Source of the DNA: Escherichia coli
GTDB lineage: Bacteria > Pseudomonadota > Gammaproteobacteria > Enterobacterales > Enterobacteriaceae
Assembly (NCBI RefSeq): GCF_003790525.1
Contig: NZ_CP033635.1
Direction: 5' to 3' (one strand)
Length of the DNA stretch: 64,000 nt
Part shown: positions 9,703-53,063 of the stretch, piece by piece
Layout: each line of letters begins with the position of its first letter
Numbering within the stretch: the first letter of the stretch is position 1
The notes under the pieces: generated by a model
What the model was told of the DNA's origin: nothing
The model's database searches: none
The model's input: the letters and a program-made list of their open reading frames with translations, nothing else
Translations under genes and position numbers: made by a program

Positions 9703-9704
9703 GA

Positions 9705-12786: not shown

Positions 12787-15700
12787 TTATCCAGCGATAA
12801 TATAACTCCTAAGGTCATTACCCGGGGCAACAGCTCGCGCTCGCGTGTTTGCCAGCCGTTCAACTTGCTGCGGTACTCGTAGAGCAAAATCAAAGAAGGT
12901 GTCTTCAATACAGCGCCAGTAGCTAAGCCCCATGTCGAGCAGGACATAATGCTGACTGCCATCGCTGAAGGTGACTGTCAGTTCTCGTCCATGCTCCGTA
13001 CTCTGGTTATCCCCCGTTAACCAGCTAATTGCTCCCAGCCACGCTGGCCCCAGATATCCTTCTTCAAGTAAAGTGGTCACAACCTGCTGACGATCTTCCT
13101 CATTAAGCCACGCGTTATAGAGAGCGTCGTGTTGGCGAGAGTTGTAATCCAATTTTTTGACGCAAACAGTGAGGCTGGCGCGTTCCGCCATTCCCTGTTC
13201 AACCAGCTCAGTTAAGATTTCACCTAACAAACGCGCCGTGAATGGGCTATTAAGATAACGATCGCTGTACTCAACATGCGTTATCTCTTTGTGGCGGGTA
13301 AATGCCTGCTTCCAGCCAGCGTGCTGTTGCGTGACTAACGACCAGAAACGCGAACCAAAACCTTCCAGCGGCCCGTCCAGTTGTTCGCAGAGATTGATGC
13401 GCACCGCCCCGGTGGGTAAGGCGGGCAGTAAATCTTCTGCACTTAAGATCTGACCCAAGAAGGTTTTTCCGGACGTTCCTTTAAGTGTCACTACTGGTGA
13501 AGACGCACTTTGTCCCCATAATTCACCAGGTGCAACGGTAGCGCTGTCGTCTGCGGCCCACTGTTGGCTTTGCCCTTCGCGAGTCACCTGCGCAAGCCAG
13601 CGTCCCTTTCCTTGCATGAGTTGCGCAGTGGCAATGGATTTCACTTGTAAGCGTCCTCCCGGCATCGCCGCCAACGCGGAAAGCTGATGTCTGGAGCTAT
13701 CAGTTAAGTTTGCCAACGGCGTGGCCACCAGCAACTCAACATGCCCACCGGAGGAGGCAAACTGGAGCAACTCTTTAAATAATGGCCATTGGGCAAAATC
13801 CCACTGTTCCTGCGGCCCCGCAAGAACCAGCGAGCAGGAGTCATAAATCTCGCTGTTCAGGCATTGCGCAATACGTAAACTCAGCGGGTTAGTTTCAACC
13901 CGGCTACCATCGCCGAAGTACTGATATTCTGGCGCGAGGTTAAGTCGCTGCAACCGTACATTGGTAAGCAGGGTTAATGCATGGTGACGATCTAATCTGT
14001 TGACATAATGCTGACTGTCGTAGCTGAGCAAGCAGTGGTGACAGAATTTATCGCAACTGCAATCGAGCAATTTTCTGGCGTAATTAAAGACATCAGCCCA
14101 ATGGTCGATCAATTGCACTGCATAACCTGCACCACCCGCATTATTGTCGTAAATGAAGATGGAATATCCGGTATAGCCATTGATATCGCGCGCTTGCTGC
14201 GTCGTCACGCCCAGCTCAGTATTTTCGATACCCAATTTATGCGCTAACCCTTCACGCAAAGCGACCGCAAGGGATCGCGCGGCAACCTCATCACGGATCA
14301 ACAGGCCATTATCATCATTGAGTTGCAGCTCAACCATATCTGTACGACTGCTATACCCCAACCACAGATCTTTATGCACATGACCGTGGCACAATTTATT
14401 GCTCCCCTGACGATCGTTACTGCCCCCTCGCAACAGGTAATGCGTATTTTCCCTCTCTGGGTTCTTAAGATTTTCAGGGGTACGCTGGGGTTGATTTTGA
14501 GATTCTGCCCGACCACATGAGAGGCAAATTGCGTAGCCGTGCCCAAATTCCCCTTCACTGAAGTGGAACAATTCCCCACTATGGCTAAAACGGTAACGTC
14601 CTAGCCCAGCATCGGGTAAAGAAACCCACACCGAAGACGGTACAAGAACACGTGGATCTTTCCAGGGAAGTTGTGCAGGCATGGATACATCATTATGCGC
14701 CTGATAACGGATATCTGTCGCAAAACCAACAGGCTGTAAATAACGCTTCACATCAAGTTGCTGTATATCCGCTTTGCAGTGACTACATTCGACAGGACGG
14801 GTAGTACTGGTTGCCCCCGCACCACATTTACGACAATGCCAGAACCACGGAATATGATGATCGCCTGACAGCTCCTGCCCGCTGGCAAGTACCTTGCCAA
14901 GCATAATGCCCGAGGAACGATATACTTTTCCGCCCAATACCACATCTGCACCTGGAGCATACTCGCGTAATGCTGTAGGCAAATCACGGCTGGGCAATTT
15001 TTCAATACGACGAGAAAAGCTTTCTCCCCCTTCATTAGGGTCAGCCTGAGTGGCTTTTATTGCGCGACGTTTTTCCAGCTCATCTGCCGTCAGATAATTG
15101 AAATTGACGACGCCAACCGGGAAACCATGCCCCGGCAGGAACGCTTCACTAATGAGTTTAGAAAACAGATATGCACCGCGATAATCACGAAGCTGATAAG
15201 CGATGGCTTTACCTGCTGGCGTTTCTTCCCACGCGCTGTTATCCGCCTTCAACGCTTCGATATTTTCCAACAGTATCGCAAGTTGGCTTCTCCAGCGGAT
15301 ATCAACCTGCTGCATCATTGCTTGTGTGCGGGTCAAGAGCTGGGTTGCCGTCAATGACATCAGGACGGTTCCCTGAGTAAGGCGTTTAAGTTTATCCGCC
15401 AGCTGATCGGCCTGGTTATTTAACCAATGGAGAAAACGAAGACACTGGCTCTCATCACCTTCAAAGAACCATTTGCAACTCAGTTTTGTCGCATCAGGAA
15501 CTTCAGCTCGTAAAAACAGACCTAAAACCAGGGCATTAACATGTCGTTGAACAATACTGCTGCTCCCAAAACGAACCCGTGGCGCACTGGCAGTAGTGTT
15601 GAACGCCCAGAGGGGGTCTTTGAATACCTCCATTCCATGCGCCGTGTTTTTACATAACGTAATGGCAGCAGATGCACTCTCTCCACGTCGACCCGCGCGG

Positions 15701-18700
15701 CCTGCACGCTGCAAATAATTTGCCGGAGCTGGAGGAACGTTGTTCATTGCCACCAAACTCATACCACCAATGTCCACCCCCATCTCCATGGTCGTGGAGC
15801 AGTTCAGCACATTAACTTTGCCTGACTTAAATTGTTTTTCATTAAACTGGTTCTGCTCAGGCGTTCTCTGCGCAGAGTGTTCCTCCAGACGATACCAGCT
15901 ATCTTTCAGGGCCAGTCGGTCGCTGCGAGTAGACCATAATCCTTCCTCGCGGGCATGTTGAATCAGCGCATTACTTTCCAGCCACTCCAGACGTTCTTCT
16001 CGGGCGATTTCTCCACCACCAGACAAACGCCAGTGACGTACAGGAAGCTCAGGCATTTCAATCAACACTGCTTTTTCAGGTGCAATTTCTTTGCTACCCG
16101 GCAAATACGGAGAGTATCCCAGTAACGTGACGTCTAACGCACGTCGAGTATAGGGGCAACGCCACACTTGCTTTGGACTGTAAAATTCAGCTTGTTGTTT
16201 AATATCCAGCTGATAACCCGACTCAAACTGACGTAAGCAGGGTCGAATTGCATCCCAGACCTCAATCATTAAGTGGTTAACTAACGATTTCCAGTGAGCC
16301 TGCTCAGGTTGTATTGCCGGAAAGACTGCAATTAATAGCTTAATGACCCGGTTATAATGGCGATCGCGTATTTGTGGCCAAAGTTGATCACGTTTCTGCC
16401 CTTTGTTTTTTTTATCTGGACCCTGGAGCATTTTTACCGGGAAACGAGCCCCCATCCAGCGAGGGTATTGCTCGTTTTCGTAAAAAACGGCACTGTTTTC
16501 ACGTATAAAGAAATCAAGAGTAATCTTCAATAAATTACGCCATTCCGCTAATTGCTTATCGGGATCGGGTAATAATGTCTTCCAGTCCTGCGGGCAGGTT
16601 GTAACTTTATCAATAAATGGATAGTGAATGGCTACCAGACCCAGACTTTCGAGGGTCCAGGCATTTTTAGGGCGGCGACCAAACTCACTGTATAAACAAA
16701 AATCTGCAAACTGTTGTTTAGTAAGATCAAGCCCAGACAATTCTTTAAAACTGCCTCTCATTCTATCGGCAAGGTCCACACTGCCAACCAGCTGTTCAGA
16801 CAGTGTTTGCCATGACATGGTTTTCTTCTGCTGATTGCCAGAGTTAGCCTGGAGTATTTGCATCGCTTCAGCATGATCCGGGCTTAAGGAACTCACCATC
16901 GGCTCGATAATTTTAAGTGCCTGAATGTCCGCCGGGCTAAGCTCTTCATTAGCAACCATCGCTTTTTTCAGCGCGTCAATAGAGTTTTTTAAAGGAAGGA
17001 TAGAAAACTGGGTAATAAAACTCTCTAACAATGCGCAGTGTGCCGGGCTGAGCTTTGCTGATGGCTCATTAATATTGGCCAACTCCTGGTAACAAAGAGC
17101 TCGCAACGTCGCTTTATCGGCATCCTGCTGTAAGCGGGCAGAAATGCGGGCAGTGCCCTGACGTGAATCCGTAAAGGTGAGCAGACGTCGACCATTAAAC
17201 GGTCCTAACTGCTCTTCTCTTGTCTGCGGTAATGGTGAAAACTCCAGCAGAGTAGGAATAATTTCATTTAAAAAAAAGGGCGCGCCAAGTCGAAGCGGAC
17301 GGAATAAAGGATTATTTTTTCGTTGGGTGTCACCACAGCAAACACAAGCAAAGGAATTATTACGTCCCTCACCTCGAGATTCCGGTCTTAACAGGTTTAT
17401 TTCATAGTGCTTTTGCGCTTCACTATCAATTTTCCCCGCCGTCGTTTCTTCCAGAGAAATGATATATTTTTCACCATCGATCGCAATCAGACGATCAAAT
17501 TGAGAGTTATTGTCTAATTCGTCGTTGTCTTCATCTTCAGAATAAACATCTACATCAAGAGCAAATTCATCCACTTCGGCAGCGGCGGGTTGCGCTACCA
17601 ACCAGTTCGTTCCATCACCGCGCACCTCCTCTTTGGCAGACAAATAAGCTGAACCACACCCGGAGCAACGTAAAACTTCAAATACCGGCGCACCACAGTC
17701 ACAATATTGGCGCTGCTCAAACCATACCTGACCAAATGGCCAGTCACTCTGATTTAATTCATGCGCTTTATGTGAGCATTGTTTGTTTGAACATGCCCAT
17801 AGACCCGCCAGTGTTCTGATAAACCCATGCATACGTAATGGCGTAAAAGCCAGTTCACCTTCTCGCGATCTCGCCATTAGGTCGAGGAGTTGCAGTAACT
17901 CACGGTGATTAATATCTGGCCAGGTTCTTCTGGCAACATTGAGCAACTCACTCAAACGTACTGCCTGCCGTCCGGGATGAGTTAACGCCTGACGCAATTG
18001 CTGGGCCACACGGTAATGACAAAGCTGTTGGTAAAGATCCTGAGGGCTCAAAGATTTAAGAGAAGTTAAAGATGTGGGATATTCATGACGAATCAGCGAC
18101 TCCGATACCCGCGGTATTTGTCGATAGCCGCGAACCACTTTGACATCACGTTCTGTAACGCCCGCGAGATCAGCGACAAATTTAGCAAGCTCCTTATTAC
18201 CTTCAGGAGAGTCTTCACCAATAGTGGCAGAGGTCGCGATAATCTGCACAGGTTTATCTGTGCCCGGTCCAACATTGAAAGCCTGCATAACACGACGTAA
18301 AAGCAGCGCTAACTCAGCAGCCTGAGAACCAATATAACTATGGGCTTCATCCAGGACGATATACTTTAACATCCCCTGAGACTTTTCGATGATTGGGGCA
18401 TCTTTACGACGAATCAGCATATATTCCAGCATGGTGGTATTCGTCACCATGATGGAAGGTGGTGCTTCGTAAATGGCTTCCCGACTCAAAGCTTGTTCAG
18501 GTACTTTCAACTGATCTTCCTGAACTTCGTATTTGGTATGCCGGGTTTCGCCATTATATAGCGCGAAGCGTATTTTCCCCTTAAATCCGCGCGTCCATTC
18601 GCGAAGCCGCTCCTGTTGGCTGTTAATTAATGCATTTAACGGATACAAGAAAATAGCTTGTGTCCCTGTTAGTGACTGACGGGTCGATTTTTGCTGACGA

Positions 18701-19110
18701 ATAAGATCTTCCAGAACCGGTACCATAAAGCATTCTGTTTTCCCGGATCCCGTACCGCTGCTCACTAACAAGGATTTTTTGTCTTCCAGAATCGTTCGCC
18801 ACGCCGTAAGTTGATGACGAAATGGCACCGGCGCTTTGCTCAATGCATCAACCAGCGGGCTGGAAATTAGCTTGTCCCGCAAATCCTCCATTGTTTCATC
18901 CGCAGGCATCCAGCCGAACGTGCTTTCGAATACCGGGTCTGCAAGCAGTGACCCCTCCTGACCGGGAGGCTGGAAATATTGTGATTCCAGATAATGAGTC
19001 AACGACTTGCTCCGCAATGCCAACTGACTTACCACCGACCTCACCGCGCGCTGATGAAGCTGATTTAGAAGTGGCGCATAATGCAGTTGCTGAACGTCCA
19101 TCAATGACAT
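12787..19110 (-). CDS. druE: DruE-like large helicase (Druantia type III-like)
   Basis: 2107 aa ORF with Walker A SSGTGSGKTECFM, DEAH-type box VLDEAHSY and a C-terminal Cys-rich region (CLSCG..., CSCDKFCHHC). Overlaps the upstream gene by 10 nt. Confidence 0.6.
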   Translation of the reverse strand: MSLMDVQQLHYAPLLNQLHQRAVRSVVSQLALRSKSLTHYLESQYFQPPGQEGSLLADPVFESTFGWMPADETMEDLRDKLISSPLVDALSKAPVPFRHQLTAWRTILEDKKSLLVSSGTGSGKTECFMVPVLEDLIRQQKSTRQSLTGTQAIFLYPLNALINSQQERLREWTRGFKGKIRFALYNGETRHTKYEVQEDQLKVPEQALSREAIYEAPPSIMVTNTTMLEYMLIRRKDAPIIEKSQGMLKYIVLDEAHSYIGSQAAELALLLRRVMQAFNVGPGTDKPVQIIATSATIGEDSPEGNKELAKFVADLAGVTERDVKVVRGYRQIPRVSESLIRHEYPTSLTSLKSLSPQDLYQQLCHYRVAQQLRQALTHPGRQAVRLSELLNVARRTWPDINHRELLQLLDLMARSREGELAFTPLRMHGFIRTLAGLWACSNKQCSHKAHELNQSDWPFGQVWFEQRQYCDCGAPVFEVLRCSGCGSAYLSAKEEVRGDGTNWLVAQPAAAEVDEFALDVDVYSEDEDNDELDNNSQFDRLIAIDGEKYIISLEETTAGKIDSEAQKHYEINLLRPESRGEGRNNSFACVCCGDTQRKNNPLFRPLRLGAPFFLNEIIPTLLEFSPLPQTREEQLGPFNGRRLLTFTDSRQGTARISARLQQDADKATLRALCYQELANINEPSAKLSPAHCALLESFITQFSILPLKNSIDALKKAMVANEELSPADIQALKIIEPMVSSLSPDHAEAMQILQANSGNQQKKTMSWQTLSEQLVGSVDLADRMRGSFKELSGLDLTKQQFADFCLYSEFGRRPKNAWTLESLGLVAIHYPFIDKVTTCPQDWKTLLPDPDKQLAEWRNLLKITLDFFIRENSAVFYENEQYPRWMGARFPVKMLQGPDKKNKGQKRDQLWPQIRDRHYNRVIKLLIAVFPAIQPEQAHWKSLVNHLMIEVWDAIRPCLRQFESGYQLDIKQQAEFYSPKQVWRCPYTRRALDVTLLGYSPYLPGSKEIAPEKAVLIEMPELPVRHWRLSGGGEIAREERLEWLESNALIQHAREEGLWSTRSDRLALKDSWYRLEEHSAQRTPEQNQFNEKQFKSGKVNVLNCSTTMEMGVDIGGMSLVAMNNVPPAPANYLQRAGRAGRRGESASAAITLCKNTAHGMEVFKDPLWAFNTTASAPRVRFGSSSIVQRHVNALVLGLFLRAEVPDATKLSCKWFFEGDESQCLRFLHWLNNQADQLADKLKRLTQGTVLMSLTATQLLTRTQAMMQQVDIRWRSQLAILLENIEALKADNSAWEETPAGKAIAYQLRDYRGAYLFSKLISEAFLPGHGFPVGVVNFNYLTADELEKRRAIKATQADPNEGGESFSRRIEKLPSRDLPTALREYAPGADVVLGGKVYRSSGIMLGKVLASGQELSGDHHIPWFWHCRKCGAGATSTTRPVECSHCKADIQQLDVKRYLQPVGFATDIRYQAHNDVSMPAQLPWKDPRVLVPSSVWVSLPDAGLGRYRFSHSGELFHFSEGEFGHGYAICLSCGRAESQNQPQRTPENLKNPERENTHYLLRGGSNDRQGSNKLCHGHVHKDLWLGYSSRTDMVELQLNDDNGLLIRDEVAARSLAVALREGLAHKLGIENTELGVTTQQARDINGYTGYSIFIYDNNAGGAGYAVQLIDHWADVFNYARKLLDCSCDKFCHHCLLSYDSQHYVNRLDRHHALTLLTNVRLQRLNLAPEYQYFGDGSRVETNPLSLRIAQCLNSEIYDSCSLVLAGPQEQWDFAQWPLFKELLQFASSGGHVELLVATPLANLTDSSRHQLSALAAMPGGRLQVKSIATAQLMQGKGRWLAQVTREGQSQQWAADDSATVAPGELWGQSASSPVVTLKGTSGKTFLGQILSAEDLLPALPTGAVRINLCEQLDGPLEGFGSRFWSLVTQQHAGWKQAFTRHKEITHVEYSDRYLNSPFTARLLGEILTELVEQGMAERASLTVCVKKLDYNSRQHDALYNAWLNEEDRQQVVTTLLEEGYLGPAWLGAISWLTGDNQSTEHGRELTVTFSDGSQHYVLLDMGLSYWRCIEDTFFDFALRVPQQVERLANTRARAVAPGNDLRSYIIAG

Positions 19111-22100
19111 ACTCCTGCTTGTTCAAAATAATATTGATAGATTACCCCTAATTGCTGCGGGGCTTGCTGATAGTGGAATTCAAAAAGCGCAGACAGTTGA
19201 TGTATCAAGTTATTATCTTTTTGGGTTAACAGCGCTGCGACTAACATCAAATTAAAACGTTTTTCAAGCCGTGAGTGATATTTATTTTTAATCCAAAGCT
19301 TATTAAAAACAGATTTTAACTCTGGAGTAATCGCACTAGACCAAAGTTCTTTAGGGAAGATACTGATACGCCCAAAGCTGTCGGGGTTCCTTAATAGCAT
19401 CTGTTTAGCTTCATTAAACTGCTCACGACTAACAGTTGGCAAGACATTACAACCGGCTGGTAGGAGTTTGCTATATGTAAGTAACATATTCGCAATGGGA
19501 GCCAGACGACGATCGATATGTGCACGATGGTTCATAAAAGCAATAAAGGGTTGCAATATATGTAATGCTAATGTTTTATCGTTAATCTGTTTTTCCAGAT
19601 AAGCCCAACACTTTTGAAAAACATCTTTCCAGATTGAAACGGGAATCCATCCCCATGAAAAGGGTAATTCTTCCTGTATATCATAAATCGTATCGCTATC
19701 ACCAGAAAGACATGATGATATTAACAACTGAACAACTACGCGGTAATTACTCGAAATACCTCTGAACAAATCCAGATCCAGCAAGGATAAGCCATTATTC
19801 ATTTTGTATTTCTTAATATACTCCGTTAATAAACAGCAATAATTTTGCAAAGGATTGTTATCTATTTCAAAAATTAGCTCATTAAAATATTTTTTTCGCT
19901 GTTCGGAATCCGCTTCGCATAGAGCATTAAGTAATAAATCATTTGTCTGTAATACAGGTAGCCCCCATTTAATTACTGGTGCAATGCGAGCTGTACCATC
20001 AAGTTTCCCCACAATTAACCATGGGCTATCCTGAACATTCAGAGCTGAAAGATCATAAGCAAATTCATCTTTTTTTAGCAACGATATGTGTAAGCCAGGA
20101 TCCTTAAGAGAAATAGCATCAACAACCAGCTCGTCTATTCTATTTGCAGGAAAAACAACAGAATTTTTTATATCAACCAGTAACCCTTGATCGTGTTCAA
20201 TAAAACTACCATCGTAGCGTTTAATACTGAGTGTTGCTTTATCCTTTCCAAATCTGTCAGAGTAAAAATCAACACATAATGTACTATTGCTGCTCCATGC
20301 ACATGCCAGCATAGCATTTAGCAAATTATAGTTCTCATAAAGTGAAATTTGTTTTAATTTGTCATTGCATCCTGATAAAAGAGGAAGGTCGGCATGTAAA
20401 TAACGGAATTTTTCAGCTACTGGATTTTCATCCAACAACTCGATATTAAGATATCCTCTTCCAGCACAAGATATGGTTAACAACTCAGCATCTATTCCAT
20501 GCAAATGCGCTATAGATGCCACACCATCAAAATGAACAGAACCATCATGAGTTACAAATCGGCCACCGCTAACCGGCTTAGGTAATAATAGTTTAAGATT
20601 AGAACCATCTTTCCAGGAGACCCGTAAATCAACGGTATTTTCCAGCATCTCCGATGAATTATAATAAATAGCACACTCGTTTTGTGAATAATCGGACTTA
20701 AGTGTTACTTTTTCATTGTTTGAATATTTGTCAATTCTAGTATCCGTTATACCAGAAAGCATTATGATGCCTTGCTGAGCACTCTCAGGTATAATATTAA
20801 TATCGAAGTCAGCTGGTAAAACTACAACTTTACCGCTAAATAAAACCTCATCATTAACTATTCGTCTGACTTCTATCTGTCCTTTTGGCATTTTTGATGC
20901 GACAGAATACCAGGCATTGTTACCTGAACGAATGGAACGCCAAAAAAGTTCTTTCTCCGGTACAATGCCATATTGCAGATCCTTTTTCCAACCGATCTTC
21001 GGCCAGGCTCGATGGACAGGATAATCCGATTTAACCAGTTCAACTTCTGTCGATTTAATATAATATTCAATCGCAGAATCATAAAGTTGCTGGGTGCGAA
21101 TTGTACAAACTGCACCATCATGTAAAACAACGCTAAATACTCCACTTATTTTAGTTAAGCTGCGTTCACTGTTTTTCAGCAACCTTGGGATATCAAACTC
21201 ACCTTCTCCACTAATATCTAAATGGCTATTTTTCGGTAGCGAAATAAACAGAGCATTTAGCCTGGAACTCACAGACCCCATACCGACAAGTTTTAGCTGC
21301 GATTCACTCTCATTCATCGCTTCAAAAACCCAGGGGAGTTCTTCAGTAAGTTCATAACCGCCTTTTGGAATTGTGTGGCCTAACAGAATTGGACCTTCAT
21401 GAAGCGACAACGAGATTTCGGCCATTGCATCTGCACCAGAGAGCTTTTGCATCGCAATAGGTAATAACTCGACCCGCCAATCTTGCTGCTCATAACGGCT
21501 TAGCATTGCCAACCTTGCCCCGCCATTTCTCCATTTTCCTGAAATGATGAGTCGGGTCTGCTCCGGCTGAATATTGCATTCAAACAAAGAGGTTAACTGT
21601 TCTGTACGCATTGTGGCCGGGAATCGGAACCGGGCATCACAATACCAACTGTCATCAACATCGACCCAGATTCTTTCAACCTGAAGACTACTTGCACTGC
21701 GTATTTCAGAAGATTGAGAAAGTAATCGCCTTACAATCTCTGCAGCATTCGCTTCGGGGAGAACGAGTGGAAGTTGAAGGTGCCAGTCTGGAGAGAGCTT
21801 ACGTAATGCAGAAACGGGATCACTGCTTTGAGGTGGATGCTCACTAAGTAATCGGCAGAGAGTCTCGCAGAATTCACCGGCTATTTCATAGACCAGTTCG
21901 TTTTGCATTGTGACAGGAATCGTATCGCCTAATTCTTGTGCAATTTTAGCGGCAGGATATTGAGATGCTTGCCCACGAAGCGCCTGATATATCCTTCTGA
22001 AATAGGTAATCAAATAACCGCTCTCATTTTCAATCATGCGGATAGGTAAACCACCTTCACAAGCCAGTGTATGCAGATAACCCGAAGCTTGCCCCAGGTT

Positions 22101-22460
22101 TCTTATCTTTCTTTTCCAGTAGCGAATGCCATCATTAACCAGCTTCTGTCGATGAACATACGGAACTTTCCAGTCAATAGAATCTAAAATTGTGTCCCAT
22201 TTAGGGTGTCCGACCGTATGAGTCCGGCGGATAAACTCTGCGGCATATATGCTAAATAGAACATCGCTATAGGAAATGAATATCGTTCTTGGATAACTAC
22301 GGGGGGCATATGTACGCAGTAGTTCTGCCAAACTTTCGTACTCTGTATCAGTACAACGGTAAGCATATAACGCCCGTCCATCAGCTCCGGATAATGAACG
22401 GCGACTAAAAAACATGTTAAGCCATTGCAAAAGTGGGTTAACTGGAGTTTTCACAAGCAA
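19101..22460 (-). CDS. druH: Large protein of unknown function, DruH-like (partner of DruE)
   Basis: 1119 aa ORF immediately upstream of and overlapping the DruE-like gene, AT-rich. Assignment is by size and context only; no catalytic motif recognised. Confidence 0.45.
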   Translation of the reverse strand: MLVKTPVNPLLQWLNMFFSRRSLSGADGRALYAYRCTDTEYESLAELLRTYAPRSYPRTIFISYSDVLFSIYAAEFIRRTHTVGHPKWDTILDSIDWKVPYVHRQKLVNDGIRYWKRKIRNLGQASGYLHTLACEGGLPIRMIENESGYLITYFRRIYQALRGQASQYPAAKIAQELGDTIPVTMQNELVYEIAGEFCETLCRLLSEHPPQSSDPVSALRKLSPDWHLQLPLVLPEANAAEIVRRLLSQSSEIRSASSLQVERIWVDVDDSWYCDARFRFPATMRTEQLTSLFECNIQPEQTRLIISGKWRNGGARLAMLSRYEQQDWRVELLPIAMQKLSGADAMAEISLSLHEGPILLGHTIPKGGYELTEELPWVFEAMNESESQLKLVGMGSVSSRLNALFISLPKNSHLDISGEGEFDIPRLLKNSERSLTKISGVFSVVLHDGAVCTIRTQQLYDSAIEYYIKSTEVELVKSDYPVHRAWPKIGWKKDLQYGIVPEKELFWRSIRSGNNAWYSVASKMPKGQIEVRRIVNDEVLFSGKVVVLPADFDINIIPESAQQGIIMLSGITDTRIDKYSNNEKVTLKSDYSQNECAIYYNSSEMLENTVDLRVSWKDGSNLKLLLPKPVSGGRFVTHDGSVHFDGVASIAHLHGIDAELLTISCAGRGYLNIELLDENPVAEKFRYLHADLPLLSGCNDKLKQISLYENYNLLNAMLACAWSSNSTLCVDFYSDRFGKDKATLSIKRYDGSFIEHDQGLLVDIKNSVVFPANRIDELVVDAISLKDPGLHISLLKKDEFAYDLSALNVQDSPWLIVGKLDGTARIAPVIKWGLPVLQTNDLLLNALCEADSEQRKKYFNELIFEIDNNPLQNYCCLLTEYIKKYKMNNGLSLLDLDLFRGISSNYRVVVQLLISSCLSGDSDTIYDIQEELPFSWGWIPVSIWKDVFQKCWAYLEKQINDKTLALHILQPFIAFMNHRAHIDRRLAPIANMLLTYSKLLPAGCNVLPTVSREQFNEAKQMLLRNPDSFGRISIFPKELWSSAITPELKSVFNKLWIKNKYHSRLEKRFNLMLVAALLTQKDNNLIHQLSALFEFHYQQAPQQLGVIYQYYFEQAGVCH

Positions 22461-22671
22461 CCTGCCTTCCTTTGATACAATTCGTAACAGGTTACTATCA
22501 TCATAAAAAAGCTCAACCCGATGAACTCGCTAAAAATGAGACAAATCATTTATATCTCGAAAAAACTTGTTACAATCATGAGCGCTACACCGAACTTAAC
22601 CATATAAATTATGTGTGTTTTGTTTATTTTTTAAACAATTACAACTATCCATTATTTACACAGGTATCAAA

Positions 22672-24324
22672 ATGTTAGCGCAGCTTTTTGAGCAGTTGTT
22701 TCAATCGATAGACTCTACACTGATCACCAATATTTTCATCTGGGCTGTTATATTCGTATTTTTATCAGCGTGGTGGTGTGACAAAAAAAATATACATAGT
22801 AAGTTTAGAGAATATGCTCCAACCTTAATGGGGGCATTAGGTATTCTGGGTACTTTCATTGGTATTATTATTGGGTTACTCAATTTTAATACTGAAAGTA
22901 TTGATACCAGCATCCCCGTATTATTAGGCGGCCTAAAAACAGCATTCATTACAAGCATTGTAGGTATGTTTTTTGCCATTTTATTTAATGGAATGGATGC
23001 TTTCTTTTTTGCCAATAAACGAAGTGCGTTAGCAGAAAATAACCCTGAATCTGTTACACCTGAACATATCTATCATGAATTAAAAGAGCAGAACCAGACT
23101 CTGACTAAATTAGTCTCGGGTATTAACGGTGATAGTGAAGGTTCTCTTATTGCTCAAATAAAATTACTACGTACTGAGATTAGCGATTCCTCGCAGGCAC
23201 AATTAGCTAATCACACTCATTTCAGTAATAAGCTTTGGGAACAACTTGAACAATTTGCAGATCTAATGGCAAAAGGTGCTACAGAACAAATTATTGATGC
23301 TTTACGACAAGTCATTATTGATTTTAATGAAAATTTAACTGAACAGTTTGGTGAAAACTTTAAAGCACTTGATGCCTCTGTAAAAAAACTTGTTGAGTGG
23401 CAGGAAAATTATAAAACGCAAGTTGAGCTGATGTCAGAACAATATCAACAAAGTGTCGAGTCTCTGGTTGAAACAAAAACTGCGGTTGCCGGGATTTGGG
23501 AAGAATGTAAAGAAATTCCTCTGGCTATGTCTGAACTGCGTGAAGTGCTTCAGGTGAACCAACATCAAATCAGCGAACTCTCCCGCCATTTAGAAACCTT
23601 TGTCGCCATCCGCGATAAAGCTACAACCGTATTACCTGAAATACAGAACAAAATGGCTGAAGTGGGTGAACTGCTGAAATCCGGAGCTGCAAATGTTAGT
23701 GCATCTCTTGAGCAAACCAGCCAGCAAATACTTCTTAATGCAGATTCAATGCGCGTGGCCCTGGATGAAGGTACCGAAGGATTCAGACAATCGGTTACCC
23801 AAACACAACAAGCATTTGCCTCGATGGCACATGATGTCAGCAATTCCTCCGAAACTCTAACCAGCACGTTAGGTGAAACAATTACTGAAATGAAACAAAG
23901 TGGTGAAGAATTCCTGAAGTCACTAGAGTCGCACTCGAAAGAATTGCATAGAAATATGGAACAAAATACGACTAATGTAATTGATATGTTCAGTAAGACT
24001 GGTGAAAAGATTAACCATCAACTATCCAGTAATGCCGATAATATGTTTGATTCAATCCAGACATCATTTGATAAGGCAAGTGCAGGGCTGACTTCTCAAG
24101 TCAGAGAATCAATTGAAAAATTTGCTCTATCCATCAACGAGCAGTTACATGCTTTTGAGCAAGCAACTGAACGTGAGATGAACCGTGAAATGCAATCATT
24201 AGGTAATGCTCTGCTTTCAATCAGCAAAGGTTTTGTCGGTAACTATGAAAAACTTATTAAAGATTACCAAATAATTATGGGGCAGTTACAAGCATTAATT
24301 TCTGCTAATAAACATCGAGGGTAA
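22672..24324 (+). CDS. zorA: ZorA-like MotA/ExbB-family membrane protein with long coiled-coil tail (Zorya type II-like)
   Basis: N-terminal hydrophobic helices (IFIWAVIFVFLSAWW, LMGALGILGTFIGIIIGLL, AFITSIVGMFFAILF) followed by about 400 aa of Q/E/L-rich coiled coil. The internal ATG at 22672 is preferred over the track start at 22615. Confidence 0.6.
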   Translation: MLAQLFEQLFQSIDSTLITNIFIWAVIFVFLSAWWCDKKNIHSKFREYAPTLMGALGILGTFIGIIIGLLNFNTESIDTSIPVLLGGLKTAFITSIVGMFFAILFNGMDAFFFANKRSALAENNPESVTPEHIYHELKEQNQTLTKLVSGINGDSEGSLIAQIKLLRTEISDSSQAQLANHTHFSNKLWEQLEQFADLMAKGATEQIIDALRQVIIDFNENLTEQFGENFKALDASVKKLVEWQENYKTQVELMSEQYQQSVESLVETKTAVAGIWEECKEIPLAMSELREVLQVNQHQISELSRHLETFVAIRDKATTVLPEIQNKMAEVGELLKSGAANVSASLEQTSQQILLNADSMRVALDEGTEGFRQSVTQTQQAFASMAHDVSNSSETLTSTLGETITEMKQSGEEFLKSLESHSKELHRNMEQNTTNVIDMFSKTGEKINHQLSSNADNMFDSIQTSFDKASAGLTSQVRESIEKFALSINEQLHAFEQATEREMNREMQSLGNALLSISKGFVGNYEKLIKDYQIIMGQLQALISANKHRG

Positions 24325-24330
24325 TCGATC

Positions 24331-25038
24331 ATGGATAAGATTATAGGGAAACAATTACCTAAAAAAGATCAAGATAATGAACACTGGGTATCCATGTCAG
24401 ACCTAATGGCAGGGCTGATGATGGTTTTTATGTTCATATCTATTGCTTATATGCACTACGTACGTATTGAAAAAGAAAAAATTAAAGAAGTTGCCGTAGC
24501 CTACGAGAATGCTCAGTTACAGCTTTATAATGCTCTGGATATTGAGTTTGCAAAGGATTTGCAAGACTGGGATGCAGAGATCGATAAGCAGACTCTGGAG
24601 GTTCGATTTAAATCACCGGATGTTTTATTTGGCTTAGGAAGCACAGAGCTTAAACCAAAGTTTAAACTCATTCTTGACGACTTCTTTCCTCGCTACCTAA
24701 AAGTTCTTGATAATTATCAAGAACATATTACTGAAGTCCGCATTGAAGGTCACACAAGTACTGACTGGACTGGAACAACGAATCCTGATATTGCTTATTT
24801 TAATAATATGGCACTATCACAAGGTCGTACACGTGCAGTATTACAATACGTTTATGATATAAAAAATATCGCGACACACCAACAATGGGTTAAAAGTAAA
24901 TTTGCCGCAGTAGGTTATTCATCTGCACATCCCATTCTTGATAAAACCGGCAAGGAGGATCCTAATCGCTCTCGTCGTGTCACCTTCAAAGTTGTAACAA
25001 ATGCCGAGTTGCAGATTAGAAAGATTATTCAGGAGTAA
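24331..25038 (+). CDS. zorB: ZorB-like MotB/OmpA-family protein
   Basis: Single N-terminal transmembrane segment (LMAGLMMVFMFISIAYM) and a C-terminal OmpA-like peptidoglycan-binding signature (EGHTSTDWTG...ALSQGRTRAVLQYV). Starts 6 nt after the zorA-like stop. Confidence 0.65.
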   Translation: MDKIIGKQLPKKDQDNEHWVSMSDLMAGLMMVFMFISIAYMHYVRIEKEKIKEVAVAYENAQLQLYNALDIEFAKDLQDWDAEIDKQTLEVRFKSPDVLFGLGSTELKPKFKLILDDFFPRYLKVLDNYQEHITEVRIEGHTSTDWTGTTNPDIAYFNNMALSQGRTRAVLQYVYDIKNIATHQQWVKSKFAAVGYSSAHPILDKTGKEDPNRSRRVTFKVVTNAELQIRKIIQE

Positions 25039-25041
25039 GAG

Positions 25042-26145
25042 ATGAAATTATCTATCGACATTTCAGAACTTATTCAATTAGGGAAGAAAATGTTACCAGA
25101 AGGAGTCGATTTTTTTCTGGATGAATCCCCTATTGACTTTGATCCTATAGATATTGAGTTATCCACGGGTAAAGAAGTTAGTATCGAAGATCTTGACCCT
25201 GGTAGCGGGCTAATCTCTTATCATGGCCGCCAGGTTCTTTTATATATTAGGGACCATTCAGGGCGTTATGATGCGGCTATCATCGATGGCGAAAAAGGAA
25301 AACGTTTTCATATTGCCTGGTGCAGAACTCTTGATGAAATGCGCCATAAAAATCGATTTGAAAGGTATCATGCAACTAACCGCATAGATGGTTTATTCGA
25401 AATTGATGATGGTTCAGGCCGGAGCCAGGATGTTGATTTACGGGTATGTATGAATTGTCTGGAACGACTTAATTACAAAGGAAGTATTGATAAACAAAGG
25501 AAAAGAGAGATTTTTAAATCATTCTCATTAAATGAGTTTTTTTCAGATTATAGTACCTGTTTTCGTCATATGCCTAAGGGTATCTATGACAAAACAAATA
25601 GTGGGTATGTCGAAAACTGGAAAGATATATCAAAATCAATACGAGAAAAGGCCAAGTATACTTGTAATGATTGTGGTGTGAATTTATCAACCGCCAAAAA
25701 CTTGTGCCATGTCCATCATAAAAATGGCATCAAATATGATAATCACCATGAAAACCTTCTTGTTCTGTGTAAGGATTGCCATCGTAAACAGCCCCTCCAT
25801 GAAGGTATATTCGTTACCCAAGCTGAGATGGCTATCATTCAACGTTTACGTTCCCAACAAGGGTTATTAAAAGCCGAATCCTGGAATGAAATATATGACC
25901 TGACTGATCCATCAGTACATGGTGATATTAATATGATGCAACATAAAGGCTTTCAACCTCCTGTTCCTGGGTTAGATCTTCAAAACTCAGAACATGAAAT
26001 TATTGCAACCGTAGAAGCAGCATGGCCAGGCCTTAAAATTGCAGTTAACCTTACTCCCGCCGAAGTCGAAGGATGGAGAATATATACCGTGGGTGAGCTG
26101 GTTAAAGAAATACAAACAGGAGCCTTTACGTCAGCAACGTTGTAA
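25042..26145 (+). CDS. zorE: ZorE-like HNH endonuclease
   Basis: HNH motif CNDCGVNLSTAKNLCHVHHKNGIKYDNHHENLLVLCKDCH. Starts 3 nt after the zorB-like stop. Confidence 0.6.
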   Translation: MKLSIDISELIQLGKKMLPEGVDFFLDESPIDFDPIDIELSTGKEVSIEDLDPGSGLISYHGRQVLLYIRDHSGRYDAAIIDGEKGKRFHIAWCRTLDEMRHKNRFERYHATNRIDGLFEIDDGSGRSQDVDLRVCMNCLERLNYKGSIDKQRKREIFKSFSLNEFFSDYSTCFRHMPKGIYDKTNSGYVENWKDISKSIREKAKYTCNDCGVNLSTAKNLCHVHHKNGIKYDNHHENLLVLCKDCHRKQPLHEGIFVTQAEMAIIQRLRSQQGLLKAESWNEIYDLTDPSVHGDINMMQHKGFQPPVPGLDLQNSEHEIIATVEAAWPGLKIAVNLTPAEVEGWRIYTVGELVKEIQTGAFTSATL

Positions 26146-26354
26146 ATTCCGAAACTCCGTGAAAGTTAAGACTTTCACGGAAGATAAATAAAATTTTCCT
26201 GATTTGTGACTCAAATTACAAAAGTCGTTTATGGCATAACTTGTCTGTTTTTTTGGTGTAATAGGTATAAAGGCATATGCTATGGTTAGCCTTATATTTA
26301 AAACTTTCCTCATACGGGTGAAGGTTAAAGCTTGGTAGATAGGTTACAGTCACA

Positions 26355-26853
26355 ATGAATAAAGCAATAACGGTGCTTGCTATAATGATGGCTTCATTTT
26401 CCGTAAATGCGTATGTATTACCGGAAACGCCTGTGCCATTTAAAAGTGGTACCGGAGAAATTGATAACAACACTGTCTACATTGGTTTAGGTAGCGCAGG
26501 TACGGCATGGTACAAGCTGGAGAAACAGACCAAAGATAAAAAAATGGACAGCGTTAGCTGCATTTCCTGGTGGACCGAGAGATCAAGCAACCTCTGCATT
26601 TATTGATGGCAATCTGTATGTGTTTGGCGGCATTGGCAAAAACAGCGAGGGCTTGACTCAGGTATTTAATGACGTACACAAATACAACCCCAAAACCAAT
26701 AGCTGGGTTAAATTGATGTCGCACGCGCCGATGGGCATGGCGGGTCATGTGACATTTGTACACAACGGCAAGGCTTATGTTACTGGCGGTGTTAACCAGA
26801 ATATCTTCAACGGCTATTTTGAAGATCTTAACGAAGCTGGAAAAGATTCAACA
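26355..26853 (+). pseudogene. nanM: nanM (N-acetylneuraminate epimerase, Kelch repeat) remnant: frameshifted and 3'-truncated
   Basis: N-terminal signal peptide and Kelch-repeat sequence closely resemble E. coli NanM. The frame breaks in the A8 run at about 26541-26548 (nanM-like sequence continues in another frame), and similarity ends after ...NEAGKDST at about 26853. Confidence 0.7.
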
Positions 26854-26971
26854 TACCGAACGCCGGAGAACTGGACGACGACACCACGAAGCAGTCATTT
26901 CAGTCGGGGGATGATTGTAGACAAATTTGTTGACGCTATTTTGCGGTTTTGGCGTGAAGGGTGAGCATTCA

Positions 26972-27613
26972 TTAATTTGCATCCATCAACGCTTTTAACT
27001 GCTCCGGCGAAAACGGTGGTTTGCGTCGGTGCAACATCGCATGGCAATTAGGGCACACAGGAAGCAAATCATTAACTGGATCCAGCTGGTAATCCTCTTT
27101 AATGGCTGAAAGCGGCACCAGGTGATGCATATGGATAAAACCCTCAGCGATATCGCCATAGATCTTCACCAGATCAACGCCGCATACGTTGCACTGGCAT
27201 CCATGATGTTCGACCGCTTTATCTCGGGCCTTTTTATCGCGTTCATAGCGGTTTACTGTCACCTTTATCGCCGCACCTTCAACGTATGTCTCCTGCGACG
27301 GCAACTCATCCGGGAACAGAACGTCGGCTATGGGAGCCGCAGCGGCTTTATCCTGATGAATATGAAATCCCTGCTCTATGAGTAGTTTGACGCATTTAGA
27401 TTTTATTCCGCCGGTGAAATCCGCAGGGGTAAATTGCGTCCCCGTCATCAATGTCGCTGCGATGCCAGCAATCGCCTTCGAGGGGTAACGTCGGCCATGA
27501 TATTCAATCTTATACAACCGCGCAGGCTGGAACTGATGAGTTTCTCCCGCATCCCATAAATGGATAGCTTCGATGATATACCGCCGCGGAAGATGATCGG
27601 GGAGTTTATTCAT
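26972..27613 (-). CDS. HNH endonuclease-domain protein with unassigned N-terminal domain
   Basis: 213 aa ORF with C-terminal HNH-type motif CQCNVCGVDL...HMHHLVPL...PVCPNCHAMLH. Divergent from the next gene. Confidence 0.5.
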   Translation of the reverse strand: MNKLPDHLPRRYIIEAIHLWDAGETHQFQPARLYKIEYHGRRYPSKAIAGIAATLMTGTQFTPADFTGGIKSKCVKLLIEQGFHIHQDKAAAAPIADVLFPDELPSQETYVEGAAIKVTVNRYERDKKARDKAVEHHGCQCNVCGVDLVKIYGDIAEGFIHMHHLVPLSAIKEDYQLDPVNDLLPVCPNCHAMLHRRKPPFSPEQLKALMDAN

Positions 27614-27692
27614 GGAGAATGTCCTTATACGTTCTCAGAACAGGCAGCAAAAAAACAAATGAGATCAAGGTAATATATCTTCACTTGCAGGC

Positions 27693-28622
27693 TTGAACAG
27701 CAGAAAATTTGCGAGCATGATCGCAACTATTTCACTGCCAGGGATATCAATGGCTTCCAGTAAATCGCTACAGCAGGCAATCGCCAATATAAAAATCTGG
27801 CACAAGGGTGAACAGCGCGCGCCGCATAAACCATTGTTACTGCTATACGTATTAGCGGGATACCTGAATGGGCATCCGCGCCTTTTCGATTATGGATTGG
27901 AAATCTACGAACCTCTGCACAATTTACTGGAACGTTTTGGGCCACAGCGTTCACAGTACCGACCTGATATGCCGTTCTGGCGATTACAAGGCGACGGATT
28001 CTGGCAATTACACAATGCCGAGCTTTGCTCAACAGCAGGGAGCAGCCGACAACCGCCAGTGAAGGAACTGAACGAATACCACGTTGCAGGCGGTTTCGAT
28101 GAACAGCACTACGCCCTGGTAACCGGCAATAAAAAACTCATCAATACTCTGGCGCAACAGATACTCGAAGCGCACTTCACCGAGAGTATTCAGGAAGAAA
28201 TTGCTGACGAGCTGGGTTTTGATCTCCAGCAAATCCGTAAACAGCGTGACCCGTTATTTCGCAAAAATGTATTACGCGCTTATAACTACCAGTGCGCGAT
28301 ATGTGGCTTTAATATGCGCCACGACGACACCACCGTCGCGCTGGAAGCGGCGCATATAAAATGGAAACAGCACGGCGGTCCTTGTGAAATTCCTAATGGC
28401 CTGGCGCTTTGCGCAATTCACCATAAAGCCTTTGATAAAGGATCGATTGGCCTGGATGAAAATATGCGGGTACTGGTCTCGGATGCGGTAAACGGCGGAG
28501 GGATCGTTGAGAGATTATTCTGGGATTTTGATGGGAAAACTATTGCGTTGCCACAGGTGCGTAAAAATTACCCTTTTGAGGGGTTTGTGGAGTGGCATCG
28601 AAAAGAGGTTTTTAGGGGGTGA
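27693..28622 (+). CDS. HNH endonuclease-domain protein with unassigned N-terminal domain (candidate modification-dependent nuclease)
   Basis: 309 aa ORF with C-terminal HNH-like motif YQCAICGFNMRHDDTTVALEAAHIKW...LALCAIHHKAFD. The N-terminal roughly 180 aa are of unknown fold. Confidence 0.5.
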   Translation: MNSRKFASMIATISLPGISMASSKSLQQAIANIKIWHKGEQRAPHKPLLLLYVLAGYLNGHPRLFDYGLEIYEPLHNLLERFGPQRSQYRPDMPFWRLQGDGFWQLHNAELCSTAGSSRQPPVKELNEYHVAGGFDEQHYALVTGNKKLINTLAQQILEAHFTESIQEEIADELGFDLQQIRKQRDPLFRKNVLRAYNYQCAICGFNMRHDDTTVALEAAHIKWKQHGGPCEIPNGLALCAIHHKAFDKGSIGLDENMRVLVSDAVNGGGIVERLFWDFDGKTIALPQVRKNYPFEGFVEWHRKEVFRG

Positions 28623-28733
28623 GGTTGATAACTATCGCGTCCCTATAATCTTGCCATCTCGTGCATTGAGATGTTAAAAGCTACAAATGTTCTCCCTATT
28701 TTTCAATGTAGACATTTATAGCAATATCAAAAT

Positions 28734-45719: not shown

Positions 45720-46298
45720 GGGACACCTCCACCACCGGCAGACGGGCAGCAAGGGAGAGCACATAGTCACGGACAAGGGAACGGCGGGCGCTGCGTTCAT
45801 CACCGGCGACGGTGCGAAGCATGCAGATACGGGGATGACGGTCTGCGCGACGGACAGCCGCAAACACAAAGACAAATTCAGGGTGTGAGGGGGTAAGGGT
45901 TGTAGCCATAAGGCAGCCTCCTTCGAGTAGCAAATAACTGCTATCGCCGGAGTTCTCACGCTCGATGGCGATAGCCCAGACGGGGGTGAGAATACCGGCC
46001 TCGAAGAATACCGGCCAGCCCGGAGGCTGCCCCGCCTGAGCTACCATTGACTCAGTGGCATAACATGCGATTGCGAACAGGATAATACCTGCACGGCAAA
46101 CCACACGCCACACCATAATCTGGCGCTCTGTGGCGTTGATTGCGACACAAAAAAAGACGCATGGCGCGTCATATGTCGCCTTCGAGTTACACGGGTTCTC
46201 ACGCCCGGCTGCCGATTTTGCGGCAACGGAAAGACTATATCCGCAAATGCCGGAAAAAGGCAAGCCAGAAAAAGGGAGTTTTTGCAGAGCGGGCATCA

Positions 46299-52815: not shown

Positions 52816-52978
52816 TTGGGGGCACATCCCTAATCGAAGTTAAGATGCCCCCAATTATGCCCCCAATGACATCCGGATTTCAACGTACAACCTCGGACGA
52901 CTCGGGACGTTAAAATCACTGCAAGCATTGATTTTTAAGGAATTATTGGACTTTCTCGGATGGTCTAGGAAGTGCTTA

Positions 52979-53063
52979 TGGTGCCGAAGGCCGGACTCGA
53001 ACCGGCACGTATTTCTACGGTTGATTTTGAATCAACTGCGTCTACCGATTTCGCCACTTCGGC
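52979..53063 (-). tRNA. leuX: tRNA-Leu (anticodon CAA), leuX
   Basis: Reverse complement reads GCCGAAGTGGCGAAATCGGTAGACGCAGTTGATTCAAAATCAACCGTAGAAATACGTGCCGGTTCGAGTCCGGCCTTCGGCACCA, an 85-nt class II tRNA with CAA anticodon and encoded CCA. Confidence 0.9.

What the first reader, a model, noticed from the sequence alone, without database searches (positions are those of the whole stretch)
22672..26145. Zorya type II-like system (zorA-zorB-zorE) in an AT-rich block
Seen in sequence: a MotA/ExbB-like membrane protein with a roughly 400 aa coiled-coil tail, a MotB/OmpA-like protein and an HNH nuclease, separated by 6 and 3 nt. Established knowledge: Zorya type II is ZorA plus ZorB plus the HNH nuclease ZorE. 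The block is visibly AT-rich and is divergently arranged from druH across a 211-bp promoter region (22461-22671).
Basis: partly seen in the sequence, partly recalled or inferred. Interest (0 to 1): 0.6.

Follow-up and report, generated by a model that had tools for sequence, protein, structure and literature searches.

The report
Known E. coli Zorya II defence operon
The three genes are an intact copy of the already characterised type II Zorya anti-phage system (zorA-zorB-zorE), base-for-base identical to annotated copies in at least 14 sequenced E. coli strains and sitting in a well-described defence island, so the finding is correct but ordinary.

Summary
The observation and the interpretation both hold. 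Window 22672-26145 (+) carries three tightly spaced genes of 550, 235 and 367 aa, with gaps of 6 and 3 nt. Each scores above the curated cut-off of the NCBIfam equivalog model for ZorA2, ZorB2 and ZorE, over the full length. The PADLOC ZorA2, ZorB2 and ZorE2 models agree.

The DNA, including the 211-bp spacer to druH, is 100% identical to E. coli SMS-3-5 and at least 13 other complete genomes, where RefSeq already names the genes zorA2, zorB2 and zorE. 593 of 5426 complete E. coli genomes hold a match. The O157:H7 allele is 98.3% identical.

Every residue shown by published mutagenesis to be needed is present at the same position: ZorB D24, H141, S143, R215 and R230, and ZorE H90, H226, K231, N234, H235, H247 and H253. 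The divergent zorABE/druHE arrangement next to ARMADA II is the published OI-172 defence island, which a 2025 preprint explicitly reports in SMS-3-5.

The flagellar-stator and Tol/Exb reading is rejected. The block is AT-rich (38% GC against 50% in the core genes).

Nothing here is new: this is a correct call of an already known system, and interest is low.

The parts
22672..24324 (+). zorA2, 550 aa: MotA/ExbB-type inner-membrane subunit with a long cytoplasmic helical tail
   Evidence: NCBIfam NF041792 scores 1139 bits (cut-off 700) over 1-550/550. PADLOC ZorA2 gives E = 2.6e-302. The solved S. kujiense type II ZorA (8VVI) matches at E = 7e-38. RefSeq names it zorA2, WP_000880882.1.
22705..23013 (+). 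ZorA membrane core (aa 12-114): three hydrophobic segments and the MotA_ExbB channel motif
   Evidence: Kyte-Doolittle segments at 12-36, 48-74 and 81-114. Pfam MotA_ExbB matches 51-110 at E = 1.6e-6.
23014..24321 (+). ZorA cytoplasmic tail (aa 115-550), amphipathic and alpha-helical
   Evidence: 4 Pro in 445 aa. Hydrophobic periodicity at 3.5-3.67 residues has z = 11-14. Pfam helical-repeat families (Apolipoprotein, ApoLp-III) match. Deleting aa 106-550 of the 550-aa ATCC 8739 ZorA abolishes defence (PMC11890865).
24331..25038 (+). zorB2, 235 aa: MotB-like subunit
   Evidence: NCBIfam NF041787 scores 443.8 bits (cut-off 400). PADLOC ZorB2 gives E = 2.2e-104. 8VVI ZorB matches at E = 1.5e-52 over 13-234.
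24388..24462 (+). ZorB transmembrane helix (aa 20-44) carrying the ion-coupling Asp24 (codon 24400-24402)
   Evidence: Hydropathy analysis and D24 in the context WVSMSDLMAGL. ZorB D24N abolishes defence in the published type II system (PMC11890865).
24625..24969 (+). ZorB OmpA-like peptidoglycan-binding domain (aa 99-213; the binding residues R215 and R230 lie just beyond it)
   Evidence: Pfam OmpA matches at E = 3.8e-8. H141, S143, R215 and R230 are present. All four are needed for peptidoglycan binding and defence (PMC11890865).
25042..26145 (+). zorE, 367 aa: HNH nickase effector
   Evidence: NCBIfam NF041791 scores 691 bits (cut-off 600) over 1-358/358. PADLOC ZorE2 gives E = 1.9e-176. RefSeq names it zorE, WP_000777273.1.
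25594..25827 (+). ZorE HNH (beta-beta-alpha-metal) core, aa 185-262, with CxxC zinc ligands at 208 and 243
   Evidence: PHROGs HNH endonuclease families match at E = 2.7e-9 to 1e-4. The PADLOC homing endonuclease model matches at E = 2e-6. Residues H226, K231, N234, H235, N238, L239, H247 and H253 are present at the positions mutated in PMC13192584. Pfam HNH_3 reaches only E = 0.081.
25867..26142 (+). ZorE C-terminal extension (aa about 276-367), present in the long ZorE variant
   Evidence: The short PADLOC ZorE model (283 positions) ends at aa 275, while the long model (375) covers aa 1-363. PMC13192584 reports a nuclease-like C-terminal extension in 90% of Druantia-associated ZorE proteins. 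Its function is inferred, not shown.
22461..22671 (.). Divergent zorA-druH intergenic spacer, 211 bp, 31% GC; presumed to hold both promoters
   Evidence: Coordinates. Hexamer matches lie at 22472-22501 and 22549-22576 (+), and at 22635-22608 and 22678-22651 (-), but they are not enriched over shuffles. Divergent transcription is stated for EDL933 in bioRxiv 10.1101/2025.09.22.677730.
19101..22460 (-). druH (Druantia III), neighbouring partner system
   Evidence: PADLOC DruH3 scores 2541 bits over the full length.
12787..19110 (-). druE (Druantia III helicase-nuclease); RefSeq places the start at 19101
   Evidence: PADLOC DruE3 scores 2180 bits. RefSeq annotation.

Best explanation
This is an intact type II Zorya anti-phage system, zorA2-zorB2-zorE, in an E. 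coli chromosome. It lies in the leuX-associated defence island that also carries Druantia III and ARMADA II.

The likely mechanism comes from published work on near-identical alleles. Five ZorA and two ZorB subunits form an ion-driven, MotAB-like 5:2 motor in the inner membrane. The periplasmic OmpA-like domain of ZorB binds peptidoglycan and is thought to sense envelope perturbation when a phage injects its DNA. This opens the ion path through ZorB Asp24. The resulting rotation or rearrangement of ZorA is passed down its roughly 440-residue cytoplasmic helical tail. The tail recruits and concentrates ZorE, an HNH nickase, at the entry site, where ZorE nicks DNA and blocks infection, mainly by podoviruses of the T7/T3 type.

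Shown here: gene identity and intactness, presence of all residues known to be needed, domain layout, and genomic context. Shown in the literature for the ATCC 8739 and EDL933 alleles: the 5:2 architecture (solved on a homologue), the requirement for D24, for peptidoglycan binding and for the tail, ZorE nicking, and protection against T7 and Autographiviridae. Still inferred: what is actually sensed, the rotation itself, and how the tail activates ZorE.
For: Family membership: NCBIfam equivalogs are above cut-off for all three proteins, and PADLOC agrees.

Identity: 100% DNA identity to annotated zorA2/zorB2/zorE in SMS-3-5 and at least 13 more genomes. A match is present in 593 of 5426 complete E. 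coli genomes. The O157:H7 allele is 98.3% identical.

Structure: homology to the solved type II ZorAB complex 8VVI, with ZorA at E = 7e-38 and ZorB at E = 1.5e-52.

Functional residues: ZorB D24, H141, S143, R215 and R230, and ZorE H90, E99, Y109, H226, K231, N234, H235, N238, L239, H247 and H253, all sit at the published positions (with 19 and 22). Protein lengths of 550 and 235 aa equal those of the tested ATCC 8739 ZorA and ZorB.

Domains: MotA_ExbB, OmpA and HNH domains are detected, and the tail is helical.

Literature: PMC11890865, bioRxiv 10.1101/2025.09.22.677730 and PMC13192584.
Against: No experiment exists on this exact strain. Expression from the 211-bp spacer is not demonstrated, and the promoter scan is not above chance. 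Pfam itself does not significantly detect the HNH domain (E = 0.081), and no solved ZorE structure exists.

I could not retrieve the ATCC 8739 allele to give an exact percentage identity to the tested proteins. The literature disagrees on whether Zorya acts as direct immunity or at a cost to the infected cell.
Confidence: 0.95

Rival explanations
1. The first two genes are a spare flagellar stator (MotAB) or a Tol/Exb-type energiser, and the third is an unrelated HNH homing endonuclease, so no defence system is present.
For: There is weak generic similarity: Pfam MotA_ExbB at E = 1.6e-6 and OmpA at E = 3.8e-8. Low-scoring NCBIfam hits to MotB, MotS and MotD exist.
Against: The MotB-family scores are 27-40 bits against cut-offs of 259-300. 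No MotA, TolQ or ExbB family hits ZorA at E <= 1e-3, whereas the Zorya II equivalogs are passed over the full length. A 440-aa tail is absent from stators. The genes sit in an AT-rich defence island, not in a flagellar or tol operon.
Confidence: 0.01
2. The locus is a genuine Zorya II but is silent or inactive in this strain, as a decaying island passenger.
For: The island shows decay nearby: a Kelch-repeat pseudogene directly downstream, an IS256-family insertion in jetC and integrase remnants. IS-truncated or IS-interrupted zor genes exist in other strains. Promoters are not demonstrated.
Against: All three reading frames are full length, without frameshifts, and identical to copies kept in many unrelated strains. 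All known essential residues are present. The 98.3%-identical EDL933 locus is active from its native chromosomal position, and the ATCC 8739 locus is active from its native promoter.
Confidence: 0.04
3. The functional unit is larger than zorABE. ZorE, with its C-terminal extension, works partly as a ZorAB-independent accessory nuclease of the adjacent Druantia III, so the divergent druHE-zorABE pair is one composite system. This does not exclude the best explanation.
For: The genes are directly adjacent and divergent across 211 bp, and druH shares the AT-rich composition. This ZorE is the long variant. PMC13192584 reports that synergy against Bas37 needs ZorE but not ZorAB, and that 90% of Druantia-associated ZorE proteins carry the C-terminal extension.
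Against: No stable ZorE-Druantia complex was detected. In EDL933 the Druantia III-Zorya II synergy was only weak and limited to a few phages. Zorya II works alone against T7 when cloned without Druantia. 17 genomes carry Zorya II alone.
Confidence: 0.3

Closest known systems
Type II Zorya of E. coli ATCC 8739 (ZorA-ZorB-ZorE; Doron et al. 2018 from my own knowledge; Mariano et al. 2025, PMC11890865)
   Same: Gene order and protein lengths are the same (ZorA 550 aa, ZorB 235 aa). So are ZorB D24, H141, S143, R215 and R230, the HNH effector, and the NCBIfam equivalog families.
   Different: No difference was detected. The exact percentage identity to the ATCC 8739 allele could not be computed here, because that record was not retrieved.
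OI-172 defence island of E. coli O157:H7 EDL933 (zorABE / druHE / armABCD; bioRxiv 10.1101/2025.09.22.677730)
   Same: The architecture is the same: armC-armB-armA-druE-druH on one strand and zorABE divergent from it. The paper names SMS-3-5, which is 100% identical to the window here, as a carrier.
   Different: The O157:H7 zorABE allele is 98.3% identical at the DNA level, not 100%. The distal part of the island differs between strains.
Sulfuricurvum kujiense type II ZorAB complex, PDB 8VVI
   Same: It belongs to the same family and is the only solved type II structure: a 5:2 complex with the ZorB peptidoglycan-binding dimer ordered on top.
   Different: S. kujiense ZorA is 378 aa, so its tail is about 170 residues shorter. 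The sequence similarity is only moderate (E = 7e-38).
Type I Zorya (ZorABCD; PDB 8QYH, 8QYK, 8QYY and 8VVN)
   Same: It shares the ZorAB motor principle and recruitment of a nuclease through the tail.
   Different: The effectors are ZorC and ZorD instead of ZorE, and ZorA is larger. The ZorA1 and ZorB1 models score far lower here: 33 bits against a cut-off of 400 for ZorB1.
Flagellar stator MotAB and ExbBD / TolQR
   Same: A 5:2 ion-driven membrane motor with a conserved Asp in the B subunit. The OmpA-like peptidoglycan anchor is shared with MotB.
   Different: There is no rotor or TonB/TolA partner gene. The locus has a long cytoplasmic tail, a nuclease partner and a defence-island context, and the family models are not met.

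Membership tests
Zorya type II | ZorA2: a MotA/ExbB-type membrane core followed by a long cytoplasmic helical tail | tested here: met
   NF041792 scores 1139 bits against a cut-off of 700 over 1-550/550. PADLOC ZorA2 gives E = 2.6e-302. Pfam MotA_ExbB matches 51-110. There are three transmembrane segments and helical periodicity at z = 11-14.
Zorya type II | ZorB2: an N-terminal transmembrane helix with the ion-coupling Asp, plus an OmpA-like peptidoglycan-binding domain | tested here: met
   NF041787 scores 443.8 bits against a cut-off of 400. D24 lies in the transmembrane segment 20-44, and H141, S143, R215 and R230 are present. Pfam OmpA matches 99-213. 8VVI ZorB matches at E = 1.5e-52.
Zorya type II | ZorE: an HNH nuclease effector with catalytic and metal-binding residues | tested here: met
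   NF041791 scores 691 bits against a cut-off of 600. PHROGs HNH families match at E = 2.7e-9. CxxC motifs lie at 208 and 243, and H226, N234, H235, H247 and H253 are present. Caveat: Pfam HNH_3 reaches only E = 0.081.
Zorya type II | Operon zorA-zorB-zorE on one strand, with no ZorC/ZorD (type I) or ZorF/ZorG (type III) | tested here: met
   The gaps are 6 and 3 nt. The flanking genes are druH and a Kelch pseudogene. The only ZorD-like score nearby belongs to ArmA, at E = 3.8e-15 against 1.4e-99 for DrmD, which reflects generic SNF2 similarity.
Zorya type II | Confers anti-phage protection that needs all three genes | not testable with these tools
   This was shown for the ATCC 8739 allele (T7, CS16F) and for the EDL933 allele in its native host (Autographiviridae). 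The window's allele is 98.3% identical in DNA to O157:H7 alleles.
Flagellar stator MotAB | Passes the MotA and MotB family models and is linked to flagellar genes | tested here: not met
   MotB, MotS and MotD models score 27-40 bits against cut-offs of 259-300, and there is no MotA hit. No flagellar genes lie in the window.
ExbBD / TolQR | Passes the ExbB/TolQ and ExbD/TolR family models, with a TonB or TolA partner | tested here: not met
   No NCBIfam ExbB, TolQ, ExbD or TolR family is hit at E <= 1e-3. The B subunit has an OmpA domain, which ExbD and TolR lack.

The most novel reading that the evidence does not exclude
The ZorE C-terminal extension (aa about 276-367) is a second, uncharacterised nuclease-like module, and together with the shared 211-bp divergent control region it makes druHE-zorABE one co-regulated composite system rather than two neighbours. 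A 2026 preprint already proposes part of this, so even if true it would extend existing work rather than discover something new.
Probability: 0.2. Interest if true: 0.3.

Novelty: already known. Interest (0 to 1): 0.08.

Why it matters
It matters little as a discovery. The locus is the textbook E. coli type II Zorya, already annotated automatically by RefSeq, present in about 11% of complete E. coli genomes, and studied structurally, biochemically and genetically.

Its practical value is as a positive control for the scan. A reader with no tools correctly recognised a defence system, its subtype and its Druantia neighbour from raw sequence.

For the biology of the strain, it predicts resistance to T7/T3-like podoviruses and possible synergy with the adjacent Druantia III. 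That is relevant to phage therapy against E. coli lineages that carry this island.

Tried and rejected
1. PDB sequence searches with full-length ZorE and with the 75-aa HNH core returned only chance hits, such as capsid proteins and zinc fingers. No solved ZorE relative is detectable by sequence.

2. A Pfam scan of ZorE gave no significant domain; HNH_3 reached E = 0.081. The HNH call therefore rests on the PHROGs, PADLOC and NCBIfam profiles and on the motif.

3. The promoter and terminator scan of 22300-26700 found no more sites than shuffled sequence. It cannot support or refute the 'promoter region' label, and no terminator-like site was found downstream of zorE on the + strand.

4. I looked for protein accessions or the strain of origin in PMC13192584, to tie the window's allele to the tested one. 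None were found. The ATCC 8739 record was not among the listed hits, so its exact identity was not computed.

5. I considered that partial zorE matches in other genomes (24% coverage) might be free-standing 'orphan' ZorE genes. This was rejected: in EC590 the match is an IS1-truncated pseudogene in a pheV island.

6. I considered that the window is SMS-3-5 itself. This was rejected: the window has an extra IS in jetC and a different element at 41.6-62 kb.

7. An Rfam scan found no RNA family in or near the Zorya locus.
Full report
**Observation.** The ORF list shows three consecutive + strand ORFs at 22615/22672-24324, 24331-25038 and 25042-26145. With the ATG at 22672, which RefSeq also uses, they encode 550, 235 and 367 aa. 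The divergent minus-strand ORF at 19101-22460 leaves a 211-bp spacer at 22461-22671. That spacer would be 217 bp if druH starts at the GTG two codons in, where the PADLOC DruH profile begins.

Composition supports the 'AT-rich block'. zorABE is 38.1% GC, the spacer 31.3% and druH 39.9%. The window as a whole is 48.0% and the core genes at 53-64 kb are 50.2%. The AT-rich block therefore also includes druH, but not druE (48.7%).

**Identity.** Against NCBIfam, all three proteins exceed the curated cut-offs of the type II Zorya equivalog models over their full length:
- ZorA2, NF041792: 1139 bits against 700.
- ZorB2, NF041787: 443.8 bits against 400.
- ZorE, NF041791: 691 bits against 600.

PADLOC gives ZorA2 E = 2.6e-302, ZorB2 E = 2.2e-104 and ZorE2 E = 1.9e-176. 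It identifies the neighbours as DruH and DruE of Druantia III.

ZorA hits no MotA, TolQ or ExbB family. ZorB hits MotB-type families at only 27-40 bits against cut-offs of 259-300.

ZorA and ZorB are homologous to the solved type II ZorAB complex of Sulfuricurvum kujiense (8VVI; E = 7e-38 and 1.5e-52). They are only distantly related to type I ZorA structures.

**Anatomy.**
- ZorA has three hydrophobic segments within residues 12-114 and a MotA_ExbB match at 51-110. Its tail of about 440 aa has four prolines and strong amphipathic-helix periodicity, z = 11-14 at 3.5-3.67 residues.
- ZorB has one transmembrane helix (20-44) with Asp24, and an OmpA domain at 99-213.
- ZorE has CxxC pairs at 208 and 243 around an HH...NH...H motif (H225/H226, N234/H235, H247).
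- Pfam does not detect the ZorE HNH domain significantly (HNH_3 E = 0.081), and the PDB holds no detectable relative. About a dozen PHROGs HNH endonuclease families do match residues 185-262, at E down to 2.7e-9, as does the PADLOC homing-endonuclease model.
- This ZorE is the long form. The 283-position PADLOC model stops at residue 275 and the 375-position model covers residues 1-363.

**Distribution.** The 3685 bp from the spacer to the zorE stop are 100% identical to E. coli SMS-3-5 (NC_010498.1) and at least 13 other complete genomes, where RefSeq already annotates zorA2, zorB2 and zorE. 593 of 5426 complete E. coli genomes hold a match, and 529 hold at least 80% of it. O157:H7 and O145 strains carry an allele 98.3% identical.

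The window is not SMS-3-5 itself. Window positions 2461-41647, the part covered by the fetched SMS-3-5 locus, are identical to it apart from a single mismatch and a 1.3-kb insertion. From 41.6 kb onwards the window carries a different element.

**Literature.**
- Mariano et al. 2025 (PMC11890865) solved type I and II ZorAB as 5:2 MotAB-like motors. They showed that the E. coli ATCC 8739 Zorya II protects against T7 and CS16F. Defence needs all three genes, ZorB D24, the ZorA tail (deletion of aa 106-550) and the ZorB peptidoglycan-binding residues H141, S143, R215 and R230. ZorE is mainly a Mg/Mn-dependent nickase that ZorAB recruits to the membrane on infection.
- The window's proteins have the same lengths, and every one of these residues sits at the same position.
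- Wu et al. 2026 (PMC13192584) mutated ZorE H90, E99, Y189, H226, K231, N234/H235, N238/L239 and H247/H253. Those I checked are at the same positions here.
- Li et al. 2025 (bioRxiv 10.1101/2025.09.22.677730) describe exactly this arrangement as the OI-172 defence island of EDL933: zorABE divergent from druHE, followed by armABCD. They list SMS-3-5 and ATCC 8739 as carriers and find the three systems together in 426 of 3792 genomes. In the native host, Zorya II protects chiefly against Autographiviridae.
- The window matches this layout: armA (9705-12563), armB (4780-9702) and the 3' part of armC (before 4780), all on the minus strand.

**Mechanism.** I commit to the published model. A ZorA5B2 ion-driven motor senses envelope or peptidoglycan perturbation at phage entry through the ZorB periplasmic domain. 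Ion flow through D24 drives movement of ZorA and its tail. The tail recruits and concentrates the ZorE nickase locally.

Established here: identity, intactness and residue conservation. Established elsewhere, on alleles at least 98% identical: the genetic requirements, nicking and the phage spectrum. Not established anywhere: the sensed signal, the rotation, and tail-to-ZorE coupling. Whether the infected cell survives is disputed.

A non-exclusive extension is that ZorE also serves Druantia III without ZorAB against some phages. The adjacency and the long ZorE variant here fit that reading.

**Rivals.** A stator or Tol/Exb paralogue is excluded by the family scores. A silent or decaying locus is unlikely, given intact frames that are identical across many strains, although parts of the island are decaying.

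**Verdict.** The feature is already known, annotated and experimentally characterised, so interest is low.

Noticed in passing
window 31300-32606 (transposase ORF 31334-32542, minus strand); jetC 32601-36686 and remnant before 31299: An IS256-family insertion sequence of about 1307 bp, with an 8-bp target duplication GTCGGGTG, interrupts jetC of a type III Wadjet system. That system comprises jetD 29859-30914, jetC, jetB 36689-37585 and jetA 37588-39054. SMS-3-5 has the uninterrupted 4437-bp jetC, so Wadjet III is probably inactive in this strain.
   Followed up: partly
window 49369-51501 (+), within the P4-like element at about 41.6-52.9 kb: A 710-aa ORF in a low-GC patch (33-37% GC) sits between psu (48423-48995) and the integrase (51562-52827) of a P4-like satellite. 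I recall this as a defence hotspot of P4-like satellites (own knowledge, not checked here). It matches no PADLOC family. It has only a weak N-terminal P-loop signal and a C-terminal MarR-type winged helix, and RefSeq calls it 'MarR family transcriptional regulator'. Other strains carry TIR or TPR proteins within the same stretch. It is a candidate uncharacterised defence gene.
   Followed up: partly
window 45964-46051, 46150-46227 and 46188-46240 (minus strand): Rfam finds C4 antisense RNA, its a1/b1 targets and isrK. These are the immunity RNA module of the P4-like satellite integrated at tRNA-Leu(CAA) leuX (52979-53063).
   Followed up: no
window 1-12563 (minus strand): The window holds the ARMADA II genes: armC (3' part, running off the window start to 4780), armB, a 1640-aa methyltransferase (4780-9702), and armA, an SNF2 helicase (9705-12563). 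PADLOC 2023 has no ARMADA models and calls these type IIG REase-MTase / DrmMI and DrmD. The assignment rests on synteny with EDL933 OI-172.
   Followed up: partly
window 26216-29732: Downstream of zorE lie four features: a Kelch-repeat (nanM-like) pseudogene; an HNH endonuclease (26972-27613, minus strand); a phosphorothioated-DNA-binding restriction endonuclease (27693-28622; NCBIfam 437 bits against a cut-off of 180); and a PADLOC candidate system PDC-S11 protein (28734-29732, minus strand; E = 8.8e-113).
   Followed up: partly
L002 9000-9872 (E. coli EC590, NZ_CP016182.2): Some E. coli genomes retain only the 3' 872 bp of zorE (96.4% identical). In EC590 it is an IS1-truncated pseudogene in a pheV-associated island. 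One other genome has an IS3 element inside the zor operon. Zorya II is therefore lost by IS-mediated decay in some lineages.
   Followed up: yes
window 19101-19110: The druE start is ambiguous. The longest ORF starts at the ATG at 19110, a 10-bp overlap with the druH stop. RefSeq starts druE at 19101, a 1-bp overlap.
   Followed up: no
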